Positions 1,009-54,680 are shown, counted from the stretch's first letter. The stretch is 64,000 nucleotides of DNA from Octopus vulgaris (GCA_951406725.2 OX597814.1:107322001-107386000), one strand, 5' to 3'. Numbers and translations are program-made. The notes: generated from the letters alone by a model not told the origin.

Positions 1009-1403
1009 TATAATTATGAACAAATCACACTTAAAGCTAAGAGGGTTAAAAAACCTTCATATGCTAAAATTAGCAGCCAAAACCGCTATAAAGCCATTAT
1101 ATCACTTATATTATTTCTCATGATAAAAACCATCCTTGTTTTTATTTCTGTCTATAGGAATATTTCCCCTGACAAAGCGAATGGGTCTCTTAAGTGGTCC
1201 CTAATGCCGAAATTGCAATAGGGAATTAACCAATTATTTTCAAGTTGTGGATTCTATTTGCCATGTCGCCTGAAGACAGTTTTTATCGTTAGGAGAAATA
1301 ATATGAGTGATATTATGGCTTTATAGCGGTTTTGGCTGCTATTCTTAACATGTAAGGGATTTTTAACCTTCTTAGTTATAATTGTGACTTGTTCATAATT
1401 ATA
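1009..1403. repeat. Inverted repeat with arms of about 125 bp and a hammerhead motif in the spacer
   Basis: 1009-1133 pairs with about 1276-1403 (gcagccaaaaccgctataaagcca / tggctttatagcggttttggctgc). Confidence 0.85.
1164..1225 (+). ncRNA. Degenerate minimal hammerhead ribozyme
   Basis: ttccc-CTGACAA(G8>A)-agcg...tgcc-GAAA-ttgcaa-TA-gggaa. 5-bp stem I, palindromic stem III ATTGCAAT, eroded stem II. Confidence 0.65.
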
Positions 1404-1545
1404 AACGTTTTCTTCTTTATATTTTATGATAACGGGTTTGGAGATTGATATATTCATAAATAATCTTATTTATAATTTATCCTTCATAATGTTTTTACAT
1501 TACTCTCTACTTAATATATATATATATATACACACACACGTGCAC

Positions 1546-2841
1546 ACAAGATGTGGTGAATGAATTGTCGTCTACATTATGCAATAATGAAAATGACACT
1601 GACATCTCTTTTAACAGATATATTTACCAAAATTACATAAAAACATCTTGAAATACAAAAGAGTAAATTTATTCAATGAAATCGCCATTGGCTTCAACTA
1701 TGGCCTCCAGACGACTTTCGAATCTCCTGCAACTCTTCTGAACGGTCTCCTTGTTTAAGTTGGTGAAGGCTGCCATAATCCTTGCCTTCAGTTCATCTTT
1801 GGTGTTATAACATGTTTTGTTGGTTTCTCGTTCAACTGTGTCCCACATGTGGTAATCAAGGGGGGCTGCAGTCTGGCGAGTTAGGTGGCCAGATGTTAGG
1901 GGTGATGTGGTCGCAGAAATTGTCTGACAGCCATGACTGGGTTCTCCTGCTTGTGTAGCATGGTGCAGAGTCCTGTTGCCAGACATAGTCTTCAAGCAAC
2001 CTCGTGACCCAGAACAGCACTACCTCCTCCTTAATGTAGGCCTCCTTGTTGAGTCTGAGGCTGTGTGGGAAGATGAATGGAAGCATAACGTTGCCATCAC
2101 TAGTGATCACTCCAAACACCATGATGTTGACTGGATGTTTGATTTTAATCACTCTTGGAACATGCTTTGGGGACACAGCAAGCCAATGGGTATTCTGTGT
2201 GTTCACCATCTGATCCTGGAGGAAATTTTTTTCTTCTGAGAAAAACCAAAGCATGTTCGGCTAGTGGGGATGCTTGAGTTTGTTCAAAAGCTTCGTAGCA
2301 CAGTCTTTCCTCTTGTCTTTTGATGGCTTGGGACAAAAATTGGCCCTTTTTCATCTTGTATGAGGAATACCGAATGTCTTCATGCACTACCTGTCTGTTA
2401 AGAAACACAGACACTCTCATGTCCCTGGTGATGGACCTGATTGACTTGGAGGGATCGGTGTCAATCATGGCCTGGATCTCACCAACAAATTCAGGACTTC
2501 TTTTATTATCAGAATGATCAGAATGAGTTTTCTGAGCTGCTGTACCTTCGTAATCACCATTAGACACATCCAACTCTTTCCAAATTTTCAGCACTGTCCT
2601 CAGATTGACACCCAAAATACTATGAAATGTTCATATTGGAGCTTCCAGTGTAAATGCCACACAGTACAGCATATTGTTTCCAAATTTCTGGCTGGGTGAA
2701 TTGCGTCATGAAGCTGTTTTTCTCACAAATGGTGACCAACTGACCCTACTATACTGTGTAGTTGACAAAATCAAAAACAAACAATGCACATGTGTGAAAT
2801 TAAAAATATAAAATGGTGACAATTTACCCATCACACCCTGT
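1546..2841 (-). mobile_element. Decayed DD37D (maT-type) Tc1/mariner transposon
   Basis: Frameshifted transposase ORFs (2145-2615, 1856-2254, 1669-1995); QQDSAP...WPPNSPDCSP(L)DY gives 37 residues between the last two Asp; degenerate TIRs cagggtgtgatgggtaaattgtc. Confidence 0.85.
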
Positions 2842-3670
2842 ATGTATATATATCATCATCGTTTAATGTATGTACATATGTGCAGCGTTAAGCATGTGGC
2901 AGGTTTTCTACAGCCGGATGCCCTTCCTGAAGCCAACCCCCACCTGTTACCAAGCGAGGTAATTTTTTTCCCCTCGCCTACCAAATTCAATCACAAAGCT
3001 TCAGTTGGCCCGGAGCTATAGCAGAAGACACTTACCCAAAGTGCCATGCGGTGGGACTGAACCCAAAACCATGTACACATTTTATATATATGTGTATATG
3101 TGTATATATATATATATATATAACATGGACATATATGTATGTATGTATATATTTATTTATATATATATTTATATATGTGTGTGTGTGTTATTTATAGGAA
3201 CATATCTGTTGTTACCAACGATGAACTTAATATTTAAAAAATTCAACAAAAAACAAATAAATTTAATTACAAATGTTTATGAGATGTCCAATTAAATAAT
3301 TGGTCCAGCAGAAAATTAACAAACTGATAATGAAATTAACATAAACTTGCATAAATTACATACAAATTAATGTTCTTTGATATATTGTAATCTTGTGACA
3401 AATGACAAACTACATAATTTCATAATACATAAATACATATATAGAATGAATTGATGTATAAATATCATAAAATATACCCCTGGTATTTCAGAACTCAATA
3501 ATACATTTTTAAACTCCAATACTTCATAATGTAACTCATTATTAAATGCATGTGGAATAAACAGACATGTATATACATAACTGGCTAAAATGATAGTCAA
3601 ATTTAATGTATTTAGAATAAAATTCAAATAAAATAAACTTTATAGACACGTATAATTCATAATTTTAATA

Positions 3671-3780
3671 TTTTCTACAGCTGTTTCAATAGAGTCAAAC
3701 ATTATCATTTATATATATATGTTGATTAACATAAAATGATTAAGTTAAAAGTTATGGGTTACCCATTTCTTCAGGAGAAA
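3671..3780 (-). ncRNA. Type I hammerhead ribozyme with long stem II insertion, intact core
   Basis: Minus strand: tttctc-CTGAAGA-aatggg...(about 70 nt)...tctatt-GAAA-cagctg-TA-gaaaa. Palindromic stem III ACAGCTGT; stem I has one mismatch. Confidence 0.7.
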
Positions 3781-3826
3781 AATGAAAAATCTTTTAAAAT
3801 ATCTTTTAAACTAATTATGTATGTCA

Positions 3827-52324: not shown

Positions 52325-52402
52325 AACCAACCACGTGACACCAAGGGGTACTGGAGGAGGCCAGGTACTCGTCGTCCAACTTTTACGTTAGTGATCACGT
52401 AT
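52325..52402. promoter_or_regulatory. Candidate promoter element with E-boxes (CCACGTGAC at 52331, TCACGT at about 52395)
   Basis: CpG-containing unique patch about 600 nt upstream of the 52953 ATG; GTCACGTGG on the minus strand fits a USF/MiT-type E-box. Confidence 0.3.
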
Positions 52403-52952
52403 ATAGATATATATATACATACGCATATGCATACATGTCTATATAAATATATATCTATATATGTTACTGCATGGCTTGTTTAATGTTCTACTTCACCTCT
52501 TCTGTTTCCCCTCCTCCCAGTAAAATACCAATGTGTATGTCAATAATAGCCATTAGCTTGTTAATTCTGATTCAATGTTTCAACCCTCCTCATACACGTA
52601 GGTGCTTTTTCGGAAGGAGCACAATTCCTGCTTCCTTTTAAAAGAGAAAAACTGCAACAATCTCTACCTTCAATTAATTCACAGATTCTTTTTATCTCTA
52701 TCTTTATTGGTGGGTTTTGTGGTTTTCTTTTTTCACATCCGCTTTTTATTTAAATGCAGCTAATTTAAACAGTGTTTGCTCATTACAGCCCACTGACAAA
52801 CTTACACTTTATCCATATATATATATATAAATATATAATGGTGGTGATGATGGTGCTAATAATATATTACCGACATTAATCCGGTTGTTTCCTGTTTTCT
52901 TGTGTTTTGTTTAAACCAAACAGTAAATTAAATAACTCTTATTTAAAGTAAC

Positions 52953-53067
52953 ATGCCTTCCTTAAATGTTCCTCTTGAGAGTCAAAGCGAAATGAAAATT
53001 GCTAATGATGTTGCTTCCGATAAAGAAATTAAGTCTGTGGATTCTTTAGAAACACCTAAAACAACAG
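52953..53067 (+). CDS. Probable first coding exon of an unidentified gene (MPSLNVPLESQSEMKIANDVASDKEIKSVDSLETPKTT...)
   Basis: Unique sequence; pyrimidine tract plus cag acceptor at 52923; aacATG; protein-like composition ending at a strong cag|gtgaga donor (phase 1). No downstream exon identified. Confidence 0.5.
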
Positions 53068-54600
53068 GTGAGAAGAAATATAACCCTTTTTTTGCCCCTA
53101 GTTCTGCATTTTCGCTTTTTATGTTCATATCTGTCCCTTTTTCTTTATATATGTGTGTGTATATATATATATCTATGTGTATATTTGTTTTACGTTCTCT
53201 GTAATGTGTCAGTTGCATGTTAGTTATATACATTCACAACTGTGTATATTCTGCAATATTTTATTTAAGAAAAAAAAAATACTATATAAATTTCTCAGAA
53301 AGTTATACGGGTGCAACGTCGGCGGGACATCAATGTGCAATCATGCCTCTCTCTTTTAAATATGACGATATTTTAGTTTAGCTGACCAAAACTTCGAAGT
53401 CATTGTCAACAGCATTCCTGTATAAGAATTATATAGTTATTATTATGCCACACCCCTTAATAAACCTTCAAAATCTCGTCCTCTTCGGGGTCGATTTTAC
53501 CTTTCATGCTTCCTGGGTCGATAAAATAATACCAATCAATATTGGGCTGGATCGATATAACCACTTTTCTCTCTTTCTCGAAAATCTGTGGCTTTTATAC
53601 TTAGGACAATCATTATTAACAACATCTTTTATTATCATCGTCGTTATTTATTATCGACTTAGTATCGTTTTCTCACTATATGTTGTCTCTTTTTAATCTT
53701 ACTAGTCTACTATTTATTAGTAGACAGAGCTATATAACTTGATTCCTCCTTCGTCTTTGGTGCTTGAATAATATTTTTAAAAAAATATTTTATTCCTTAT
53801 CAAATTTCTGAATTTCAAAACGAAACCATGTTTCGTTTTGTTCTGAAAGTGAAATTTACTTTTCTTAGAAATGCTCTTAATAAATAAACATTACTTTTTC
53901 TCTGCCCGGAGTAGCTTGAGGTGGTGATCTTTAAGAAATAGTCGTTGTAAACTATCCCAGAAATAATTCTTTATTTTTCAACACATCCAACAGGAAGAAG
54001 CCTCTGAGTAGTCGTTCGACATGCTAGAAATGGCAGCTAAATCGCCATTTCAGTCCCACCTACTATTGTCTTGGGTTTTAAAAAAAATTGGAAACACTGA
54101 ATGGTATATTCCTAAATCCCTTTACAATGAGAGAATGATCTTGGCTGGATCTTGGGTTTAAGATATTAGATGTGGGGTGAGATATTTGTAAAACTAACTA
54201 ATCCATATGAAGTATTGATATCGATTTAACCTCCTGCTTCTGCTGGTATTTCGGTGTCTCTTGATATCAACCACGTTGACAAGATCAAAAGACACTGGAA
54301 CCGCAGGTGAGAGGTATCAACAATCAATACACACCCATCTTTTACTTGTTCTTGTTGCACATATACATACATATACACACACATATTAGTGTATCTATGT
54401 GAATGTGTGTGTGTGTGTGTGTTTAATCAGCAGGTGTTACAAAGTGACTCGGGAGTCAAGGGTTTCGTGCATGGTACTTACCAAACTTAAAAATGCACAA
54501 AACTCTCGGCCCTTGAATCACTTCGTCACTTCTACCGATTAAAAAAAAATTAAAGCAACTCGTTTGAATTCTATTTTATTGTCCTCTTTGTGTCTGTTTG

Positions 54601-54680
54601 ACAATGACTTCGAAGTTTCGGCTTGCCTGCCTTCATCACACAGATGAAGGTGAGGTGCAAACCGAAGCCCTCACGTCACT
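54601..54680. ncRNA. Head-to-head pair of degenerate hammerhead motifs
   Basis: Minus strand: gTGATGA-a-ggc-aggcaa-gcc-GAAA-cttcgaag-TC, with stem III palindrome ACTTCGAAGT and C3/stem I lost at the fold-back centre near 54640. Plus strand: caGATGA-a-ggt...acc-GAAG...TC, a diverged inverted copy. Confidence 0.55.

What the first reader, a model, noticed from the sequence alone, without database searches (positions are those of the whole stretch)
1164..54680. About eight hammerhead motifs from several unrelated families in 64 kb, most with a different palindromic stem III
Seen: motifs at 1164(+), 3671(-), 14700(+), 20638(+), 29594(-), 29941(-), 36435(+) and 54601(-/+). After GAA, stem III reads ATTGCAAT, ACAGCTGT, ACACGTGT, ACATGT, ATCGCGAT, ATCATGAT and ACTTCGAAGT; the 36435 motif is imperfect. 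Stem II ranges from a 3-bp hairpin to an insertion of about 80 nt, and the flanks of different loci look unrelated. A conserved palindrome property with changing sequence argues against chance. Inference: this genome carries a very high and diverse load of dimer-type ribozymes from Penelope-like elements, here with no recognisable RT or GIY-YIG ORF.
Basis: partly seen in the sequence, partly recalled or inferred. Interest (0 to 1): 0.8.

Follow-up and report, generated by a model that had tools for sequence, protein, structure and literature searches.

The report
Penelope-type hammerhead retroelement relics in octopus
This stretch of octopus DNA holds nine hammerhead-ribozyme motifs, nearly all with a palindromic third stem and far more than chance gives, likely left by small protein-less jumping elements that borrow the enzymes of Penelope-type retrotransposons; the kind is already known from other animals, about half the motifs are decayed, and cutting was not tested.

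Summary
The motifs are real. A strict type I descriptor with a palindromic helix III finds 4 (shuffle mean at most 0.007; the non-palindromic control is not enriched). Three more carry one core lesion, 36442 is decayed, and a ninth (U3-A8 minimal hammerhead, 42959-) was missed. The host is an octopus. No RT or GIY-YIG remnant was found in 493 frame fragments. Five of 7 loci lie between inverted arms (10.5% of control points do). The pair at 29630/29977 is an ORF-less 347-nt partial tandem that folds as a rod (z -5.8). In public contigs its family has thousands of pieces, 5'-truncation, at least 128 distinct 3' junctions, and two 3'-end classes about 55 nt apart, like the 'tail' that marks Penelope-like (PLE) insertion. 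Best reading: decayed non-autonomous PLE derivatives (retrozyme-like units and pLTR stubs) with dimer-type hammerheads. Palindromic helices III of 4-10 nt, many families per genome and the retrozyme-PLE link are published; this scan also noted such motifs in other genomes. Modestly new: octopus, and PLE-specific insertion marks on an ORF-less retrozyme unit. Cleavage, circles and the partner element are untested.

The parts
1163..1226 (+). Type I hammerhead, helix III ATTGCAAT, core decayed (G8 read as A), helix I 5 bp
   Evidence: one-mismatch hit
1009..1130 (-). Inverted arm of the 1169 element (85.6% to 1279-1403); (TA)n lies on both sides of the insertion
3669..3781 (-). Type I hammerhead, intact core, 80-nt helix II insert, helix III ACAGCTGT
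   Evidence: strict hit
4385..4444 (+). Inverted arm carrying a second copy of the 3' half of the 3774 hammerhead; same palindrome, and it pairs 6 of 7 in helix I against 5 of 7 in the forward copy
3826..4373 (.). Mariner remnant with terminal inverted repeats, inserted later between the two arms (not part of the element)
   Evidence: HTH_48, E 3.3e-12
14700..14788 (+). Type I hammerhead, intact core, 12-bp helix II, helix III ACACGTGT, GUC triplet
14792..15099 (+). 3' body of the 14704 element, ending in (TA)n; copies without the ribozyme at 664-998 and 11008-11304 (about 90%); inverted arm at 14275-14381
20638..20680 (+). Decayed compact hammerhead (G12 read as A), 4-bp helix II, helix III ACATGT; no inverted arm or second copy found
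29411..30094 (-). Retrozyme-like insertion: about 1.9 ORF-less units of 347 nt plus a 29-nt inverted 5' arm (30066-30094 = 29745-29717)
29592..29636 (-). Hammerhead of unit B, intact core, helix III ATCGCGAT, predicted cut after 29598
29939..29983 (-). Hammerhead of unit A, intact core, helix III ATCATGAT, predicted cut after 29945
29717..29774 (-). Stretch between the two 3'-end classes of the family (29770-29775 and 29716-29717): candidate PLE 'tail' of 53-58 nt
   Evidence: table 7
35960..36770 (+). Partial tandem of period 533 (36108-36237 = 36641-36770, 93%) with a two-piece inverted 5' arm (35960-36109), ending at (TA)n
36436..36513 (+). Decayed hammerhead: CTGAAGA and GAAA present, helix III and cleavage triplet broken
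   Evidence: fits no descriptor
42923..42965 (-).
54600..54639 (-). Decayed hammerhead (C3 read as G, no helix I partner), 3-bp helix II, 10-nt helix III ACTTCGAAGT
53386..53413 (+). Second copy of the 3' half of the 54639 motif, same palindrome (23 of 24 identical)

Best explanation
These are type I hammerhead motifs with palindromic helix III, sitting in short non-coding insertions that were likely made by Penelope-like (PLE) reverse transcriptase-endonucleases acting in trans. SHOWN: the motifs exceed chance; they come from about eight families that share no flanks; most loci have inverted 5' arms or partial tandems; and the one family tested is highly repeated, 5'-truncated and has fixed 3' ends. 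INFERRED mechanism: a tandem locus is transcribed. The helix III hairpin is unstable alone, so two copies pair their palindromes into a double hammerhead and would cut only multimers, possibly helped by the PLE protein. The PLE enzyme nicks AT-rich DNA and starts reverse transcription at one of two fixed internal sites, about 170 and 228 nt downstream of the predicted cut in the 347-nt family. It copies an uncleaved multimer or a circle across the ribozyme junction and often ends in an inversion. Each family's palindrome may differ freely because it only has to pair with itself. The copies then decay; about half the motifs here are dead relics.
For: Enrichment that depends on the palindrome. 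Palindrome homoduplexes of -4.6 to -12.5 kcal/mol against +1.6 to +6.0 for the best hairpin, 7 of 7. For 29416-30062, the constrained double hammerhead folds at -164.0 against -149.6 for two monomers. Inverted arms straddle 5 of 7 loci against 51 of 485 control points (binomial p 2e-4; the rule was drawn up after seeing the loci). 29330-30200 at 80% likeness: 6705 and 8602 contigs laid in two runs; summed depth about 200-290 on most flank bins of X1 against 1.2 million near the 3' end, falling steeply towards the 5' end. Long, unlike loose ends (agreement 0.41-0.43) at 29770-29775 (128 contigs X1, 114 X2) and at 29717 (33 X2) or its inverted equivalent 30094 (17 X1). 7 of the 15 joints shown change strand. 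The family letter at 29593 completes helix I in 99% of depth (X1, X2). Contigs of other copies bridge the tail into the unit's own start (table 8 records 2 and 26). The 347-nt monomer folds as a circle at -96.5 against -70.2 +/- 4.5 (z -5.8), and its longest ATG ORF is 28 aa. Literature: the two-start 'tail' is called unique to PLEs (PMC11167929); inverted pLTR plus tail (PMC3846280); O. vulgaris has 31 recently active Penelope-like families (PMC13282606).
Against: No RT or GIY-YIG remnant in the window, and no partner could be sought because no genome is held. 20644 has no inverted arm or second copy, and the possible arm at 54641 is not above the window background (42 of 439 points). Neither hammerhead fold is the free minimum (-171.7), and the present A/B palindrome duplex is only -2.8. 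The candidate tail (53-58 nt) is longer than the 30-40 nt published, and the window's own direct end (29411-29416) lies 7-17 nt past the main end class. No target-site duplication was evident by eye. Only 24 of 993 loose-end rows and 15 of 181 joint rows were shown, so other end classes may exist. Summed depth is not a copy number. The ATCGCGAT/ATCATGAT double change is two CpG transitions and need not be compensatory. In the anole PLE the hammerhead was protein-assisted, not needed for insertion in vitro, and no RNA-seq reads ended at the cut (PMC11167929). Only one of about eight families was examined outside the window.
Confidence: 0.8

Rival explanations
1. The motifs are only the 3' pLTR stubs of ordinary autonomous PLEs, 5'-truncated before the ORF; no self-standing small element exists.
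For: Most PLE hammerheads occur as single motifs from truncated copies (PMC4209133). For 1169, 3774, 14704, 20644, 42959 and 54639 nothing here separates a stub from a mini-element. This rival shares the PLE mechanism with the best explanation.
Against: In the 347-nt family the sequence after the 3' end and tail runs into the unit's own 5' arm, in the window and in contigs of other copies. The closed unit has no ORF above 28 aa. The 533-nt unit is also a partial tandem without a Pfam-recognisable frame.
Confidence: 0.3
2. The tandem units are minisatellite-like DNA duplications of a pLTR that spread by unequal crossover, not by retrotransposition of the unit; the ribozymes are passengers.
For: The 2026 preprint proposes local tandem amplification after a PLE lands, and 8 of 9 tested dimers did not cleave (10.64898/2026.07.22.740005).
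Against: At least 128 contigs leave the unit at 29770-29775 into unlike flanks, depth falls from 3' to 5', and strand-switch joints occur at many places. The window's copy has its own inverted 5' arm.
Confidence: 0.08
3. The small units are retrozymes moved by a LINE (RTE, CR1, Dong-R4), not by a PLE, through a circular RNA.
For: PMC7229834 leaves LINEs and PLEs open as partners; LINEs are the larger active class in O. vulgaris; 5' inversions and truncation also occur in LINEs (recalled).
Against: Two fixed internal 3' ends, and inverted arms that include the 3' end and so flank the insertion, are PLE marks. No poly(A) tail follows unit B.
Confidence: 0.07
4. Chance matches in AT-rich, repeat-rich DNA.
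For: No Rfam hammerhead match; local folds are mostly unremarkable (z from 0.17 to -2.36); one one-mismatch hit (47936) is probably chance, and 36442 fits no descriptor.
Against: 0 of 300 shuffles reach the strict count and the non-palindromic control is flat; second copies keep the palindromes; the family majority completes helix I.
Confidence: 0.02
5. Some motifs are host-recruited ribozymes that process octopus transcripts.
For: 42959 lies just before an AATAAA and downstream of an acceptor-like tract.
Against: No homologue for that frame. AU-rich tracts follow PLE hammerheads generally. Four of nine motifs have core lesions.
Confidence: 0.04

Closest known systems
Minimal and variant hammerheads in pLTRs of metazoan Penelope-like elements (Cervera and De la Pena 2014, PMC4209133; parts 1-2 of 4 of the text and parts 1-2 of 3 of supplement file 2 read)
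   Same: Type I topology, palindromic helix III, extra nucleotide after A9, variable helix II, many unrelated families per genome, mostly single motifs without ORF, U3-A8 core variant. Fig. S3, as I read the PDF text, shows 8-nt (D. willistoni) and 10-nt (Aedes, Saccoglossus) palindromes.
   Different: No cephalopod is listed there; 8-nt palindromes dominate here while 4-nt ones dominate that list; some helix II inserts are longer (62 and 80 nt); no ORF-linked copy was seen here.
Metazoan non-LTR retrozymes (Cervera and de la Pena 2020, PMC7229834; abstract, section 14 and passages read)
   Same: ORF-less, low-GC tandem unit with one type I hammerhead each, in the 170-400 nt range (mussel 350-390), strongly self-paired as a predicted circle.
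   Different: Circular RNA and cleavage not shown here; here the insertion also carries an inverted arm and the family two 3'-end classes, which the passages I searched do not mention ('inverted' 0 occurrences).
Retrozymes as non-autonomous PLE derivatives (Li, Clavereau and Pollet 2026, bioRxiv 10.64898/2026.07.22.740005; parts 1-3 of 5 read, supplements closed)
   Same: Same conclusion on origin and likely mobilising partner.
   Different: Their evidence is co-occurrence and pLTR phylogeny, mainly in vertebrates; 'octopus', 'mollus', 'tail' and 'palindrom' have 0 occurrences. The evidence here is insertion anatomy.
EN+ PLE insertions with inverted pLTR and tail (Arkhipova et al. 2013, PMC3846280, passages; Frangieh et al. 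2024, PMC11167929, parts 1-3 of 4; Craig et al. 2021 preprint, passages)
   Same: Partial tandems, inverted 5'-truncated arm, two 3' ends, AT-rich and microsatellite targets, hammerhead upstream of the start sites.
   Different: There the tail is 30-40 nt and is the start of an RT-EN ORF; here it is 53-58 nt and leads back into a 347-nt non-coding unit.

Membership tests
Type I hammerhead ribozyme (motifs 3774, 14704, 29630, 29977, 42959) | Core CUGANGA (or U3-A8 variant), GAAA, NUH triplet, helices I and II | tested here: met
Type I hammerhead ribozyme (motifs 1169, 20644, 36442, 54639) | Intact core and triplet | tested here: not met
   one core lesion each, or broken helix III; filed as decayed relics, not as active ribozymes
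Type I hammerhead ribozyme | Self-cleavage after H17 | not testable with these tools
   needs in vitro transcription or raw RNA reads; only contigs were on offer
PLE-type dimer hammerhead | Short palindromic helix III, unstable as a hairpin, stable as a homoduplex | tested here: met
   8 of 9 motifs palindromic
PLE-type dimer hammerhead | Covariation of stems within families | tested here: inconclusive
   the family letter completes helix I, but the helix III double change is CpG-type; one family only, 40 of 104 rows shown
Autonomous Penelope-like element | RT plus GIY-YIG ORF between pLTRs | tested here: not met
   window only; not filed as an autonomous PLE
PLE-mobilised insertion | Inverted 5'-truncated arm and partial tandem | tested here: met
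   5 of 7 loci; not at 20644, inconclusive at 54639
PLE-mobilised insertion | Two fixed 3' ends ('tail') and 5' truncation | tested here: met
   347-nt family only; tail 53-58 nt; tables cut to the best rows
PLE-mobilised insertion | Target-site duplication or shared target consensus with a PLE family | tested here: inconclusive
   none evident by eye; loose ends are AT-rich
PLE-mobilised insertion | Sequence homology to the pLTR of an ORF-bearing PLE of the same genome | not testable with these tools
   no genome held; pattern scans empty
Non-LTR retrozyme (29411-30094) | Tandem unit of 150-450 nt, GC under 50%, one type I hammerhead per unit, no ORF | tested here: met
   (GC 0.365 for 28001-30000)
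Non-LTR retrozyme (29411-30094) | Dispersed multi-copy family | tested here: met
Non-LTR retrozyme (29411-30094) | Highly self-paired monomer | tested here: met
   prediction only (z -5.8, 100 shuffles)
Non-LTR retrozyme (29411-30094) | Expression as linear and circular monomer RNA | not testable with these tools
   no raw-read RNA run offered; contigs cannot show it
Non-LTR retrozyme (29411-30094) | Loop 1-loop 2 tertiary contacts of canonical type I hammerheads | not tested
   helix I has an internal loop and loop 2 is a hexaloop; contacts not modelled

The most novel reading that the evidence does not exclude
The 347-nt family is a protein-less retrozyme that has kept the two internal reverse-transcription start sites of a PLE, so its thousands of octopus copies record PLE-driven mobilisation of a retrozyme directly, by insertion anatomy instead of co-occurrence. 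Octopus genomes would carry one of the densest and most diverse loads of such elements (5 intact motifs in 64 kb here), with each family's own palindrome acting as a self-recognition key for dimer cleavage.
Probability: 0.45. Interest if true: 0.5.

Novelty: new member of a known kind. Interest (0 to 1): 0.33.

Why it matters
Which enzyme moves animal retrozymes is still argued from co-occurrence and trees. An ORF-less unit with PLE-specific ends gives a direct, cheap test: a defined 347-nt template with predicted start sites for a PLE enzyme assay, in a genus with recently active PLE families. It also suggests that part of the unclassified repeat fraction in octopus is ribozyme-bearing PLE debris that Rfam misses. 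The ribozyme architecture itself is not new.

Tried and rejected
Rfam: no hammerhead at gathering score or to E=10. No whole genome was held, so no genome-wide count or partner search. Family patterns found nothing in viral, metagenome or prokaryotic genome contigs. Run search: no RNA holder listed. Two runs guessed to be RNA hold pieces of the family (789 and 412 contigs); this is not used as evidence of expression. The plus-strand reading at 54641 as a second hammerhead was rejected (no A15.1-U16.1 pair); as an inverted arm it is inconclusive (12 of 1000 shuffles, but 42 of 439 control points). An inverted arm at 20644 was not found (145 of 300 shuffles). The idea that copies of the 14704 family begin at the cleavage site was dropped: similarity starts a few bases later in TA-rich sequence and cannot be placed. 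The idea that 42959 lies in a host 3' UTR found no support. The GAA-plus-palindrome half motif alone is weak (8 nt: 9 vs mean 3.23, max 9); the signal needs the full descriptor. The 47936+ hit was not followed. Copy number was not estimated, as summed contig depth does not give one. Literature searches listed no paper on octopus hammerheads. The giant squid paper reports 235 Rfam hammerhead-1 loci (PMC6962438, passage), and two cephalopod repeat papers have 0 occurrences of 'hammerhead'. Subscription papers and Repbase/Dfam entries were not searchable. Unseen supplements (file 1 and part 3 of file 2 of PMC4209133, those of PMC7229834 and of the 2026 preprint) could list cephalopod families.

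
Full report
Host and setting. The window is AT-rich (GC 0.384) and full of microsatellites and dispersed repeats. It holds exons of a cyclophilin gene on the minus strand; the last exon is 96% identical to a protein named PPIB of Octopus sinensis, so the host is an octopus. No whole genome was held.

The observation. All eight motifs are present with the helix III sequences listed. Rfam found no hammerhead, so I built descriptors. The strict one (intact core, 6/8/10-nt palindrome from A15.1 to U16.1, H17, at least 3 of 4 pairs in helices I and II) found 3774-, 14704+, 29630- and 29977-. 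Shuffle means were 0.007 and 0.0, and none of 300 shuffles reached 4. With a non-palindromic helix III there was no excess (0 vs 0.39; 10 vs 9.55). A compact descriptor without helix I recovered 20644+ and 54639- (4 hits in all vs 0.01). A minimal descriptor found a ninth motif at 42959-, with a U3-A8 core and a 6-bp helix I (1 vs 0.02); its minimum-energy fold forms helices I and II. Five of nine motifs have intact cores. 1169 (G8), 20644 (G12) and 54639 (C3) carry one core lesion each, and 36442 has a broken helix III and fits no descriptor. Single C3G and G8C changes abolished activity in the anole PLE hammerhead (PMC11167929); that G12 is essential is recalled.

Surroundings. Self-comparison showed no shared flanks between loci, except that 29630 and 29977 are one family. 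At 1169, 3774, 14704, 29977 and 36442 an upstream segment is the reverse complement of a segment at or downstream of the ribozyme, with 3' ends pointing outward. Such arms straddle 5 of 7 loci against 51 of 485 control points (rule set after seeing the loci). At 3774 a mariner remnant has since split the arms, and the arm keeps the same palindrome with a better helix I. Partial tandems occur with periods 347, 533 and probably 407. The 1169, 14704 and 36442 elements abut (TA)n tracts. No RT or GIY-YIG domain was found in 493 of 493 frame fragments. This is the layout described for EN+ Penelope-like insertions.

The 347-nt family. The stretch 29411-30094 is about 1.9 units plus a 29-nt inverted arm. 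The units differ at 36 of 294 aligned positions, 27 of them transitions. The monomer between predicted cuts is 347 nt, folds as a rod-like circle (-96.5 vs -70.2 +/- 4.5 kcal/mol) and has no ATG frame above 28 aa. Twenty of 24 listed runs, under five organism labels, hold part of the region. I laid four. In the two large runs 6705 and 8602 contigs matched at 80% likeness. Summed depth peaks near the 3' end and falls steeply towards the 5' end. Long loose ends of low agreement, meaning different flanks, cluster at 29770-29775 (128 and 114 contigs) and at 29717 (33 in X2; 17 at the inverted equivalent 30094 in X1). Seven of 15 joints shown switch strand, five of them in both runs, compatible with inversion junctions at other loci. 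The majority letter at 29593 completes helix I (99% of depth). Contigs from other copies bridge the tail into the unit's own start, so the unit closes on itself. Limits: the tables were cut (24 of 993 loose-end rows, 15 of 181 joints, 40 of 104 letter rows); depth is not copy number; contigs say nothing about RNA ends; and the window's own direct end lies 7-17 nt beyond the main class.

Mechanism. Frangieh et al. showed in vitro that a PLE starts reverse transcription at two internal sites, which gives the genomic 'tail' they call unique to PLEs. The two end classes here, about 170 and 228 nt past the predicted cut, fit that pattern, with a longer tail (53-58 vs 30-40 nt). The window's copy runs across the cleavage site twice, so its template was an uncleaved multimer or a circle, not a cleaved linear monomer (inference). 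For 7 of 7 palindromes the homoduplex is favourable and the hairpin is not. For the tandem, the double hammerhead is 14.4 kcal/mol better than two monomers, though 7.7 worse than the free fold. I therefore infer dimer-restricted cleavage in the ancestral families. The palindrome can differ between families because it pairs only with itself. Against over-reading: in the anole element cleavage needed protein, was dispensable for insertion in vitro and left no reads at the cut, and 8 of 9 Xenopus dimers did not cleave.

Comparison with what is known. Cervera and De la Pena 2014 describe palindromic helix III, many divergent families per genome, mostly single motifs, and the U3-A8 variant. Their Fig. 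S3, read from PDF text with some loss of layout, includes 8- and 10-nt palindromes and no cephalopod. The 2020 paper defines 170-400-nt retrozymes, including a mussel family, and names PLEs as the strong candidate partner. A 2026 preprint argues the same from co-occurrence and phylogeny. O. vulgaris has 31 recently active Penelope-like families. Coral has over 6000 motifs and axolotl 126,247, so large loads are known; five intact motifs in 64 kb looks dense, but one selected window cannot be extrapolated. Earlier notes of this scan report the same kind in other genomes; they are unchecked and not counted as support.

Verdict. Observation confirmed and extended; interpretation supported. These work like PLE/retrozyme dimer hammerheads. 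The 29.4-30.1 kb insertion meets the sequence criteria of a non-LTR retrozyme, with cleavage and circles untested; nothing here is an autonomous PLE. New member of a known kind, interest 0.33. The part worth keeping is the PLE-specific end signature on an ORF-less unit, which makes the partner question directly testable in octopus.

Noticed in passing
window 5202-10107 (-): Cyclophilin (PPIB-like) gene, exons near 9730-10107, 8321-8440 and 5202-5453; last exon 96% to Octopus sinensis PPIB
   Followed up: partly
window 3826-4373: Mariner remnant (HTH_48) with terminal inverted repeats inserted between the arms of the 3774 element, so it is the younger insertion
   Followed up: partly
window 1669-2630 (-) and 27802-28062 (+): Broken Tc1/mariner-like transposase frames; 27802-28062 hits DDE_3 (E 2.3e-08), the other is judged by eye and has no Pfam hit
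   Followed up: no
window 43088-42990 (-): Acceptor-like polypyrimidine tract and a short frame upstream of the 42959 motif, with AATAAA just after the motif; no protein homologue found
   Followed up: partly
window 47936-48010 (+): One-mismatch descriptor hit with a 6-nt palindrome; probably chance (0.15-0.25 expected)
   Followed up: no
window 6757-7584, 26936-27132, 36954-37090, 49279-49719, 51810-52102: Long imperfect palindromes built from abundant dispersed repeats; whether some are ribozyme-less head-to-head insertions was not examined
   Followed up: no
window 5471-6073 and 30769-31554: Minisatellites of 28-nt and 38-nt units
   Followed up: no
window 29770-29775 (loose ends): Flank consensus next to the main 3' end reads ...ATAG on the plus strand in three runs, a possible target preference
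   Followed up: no
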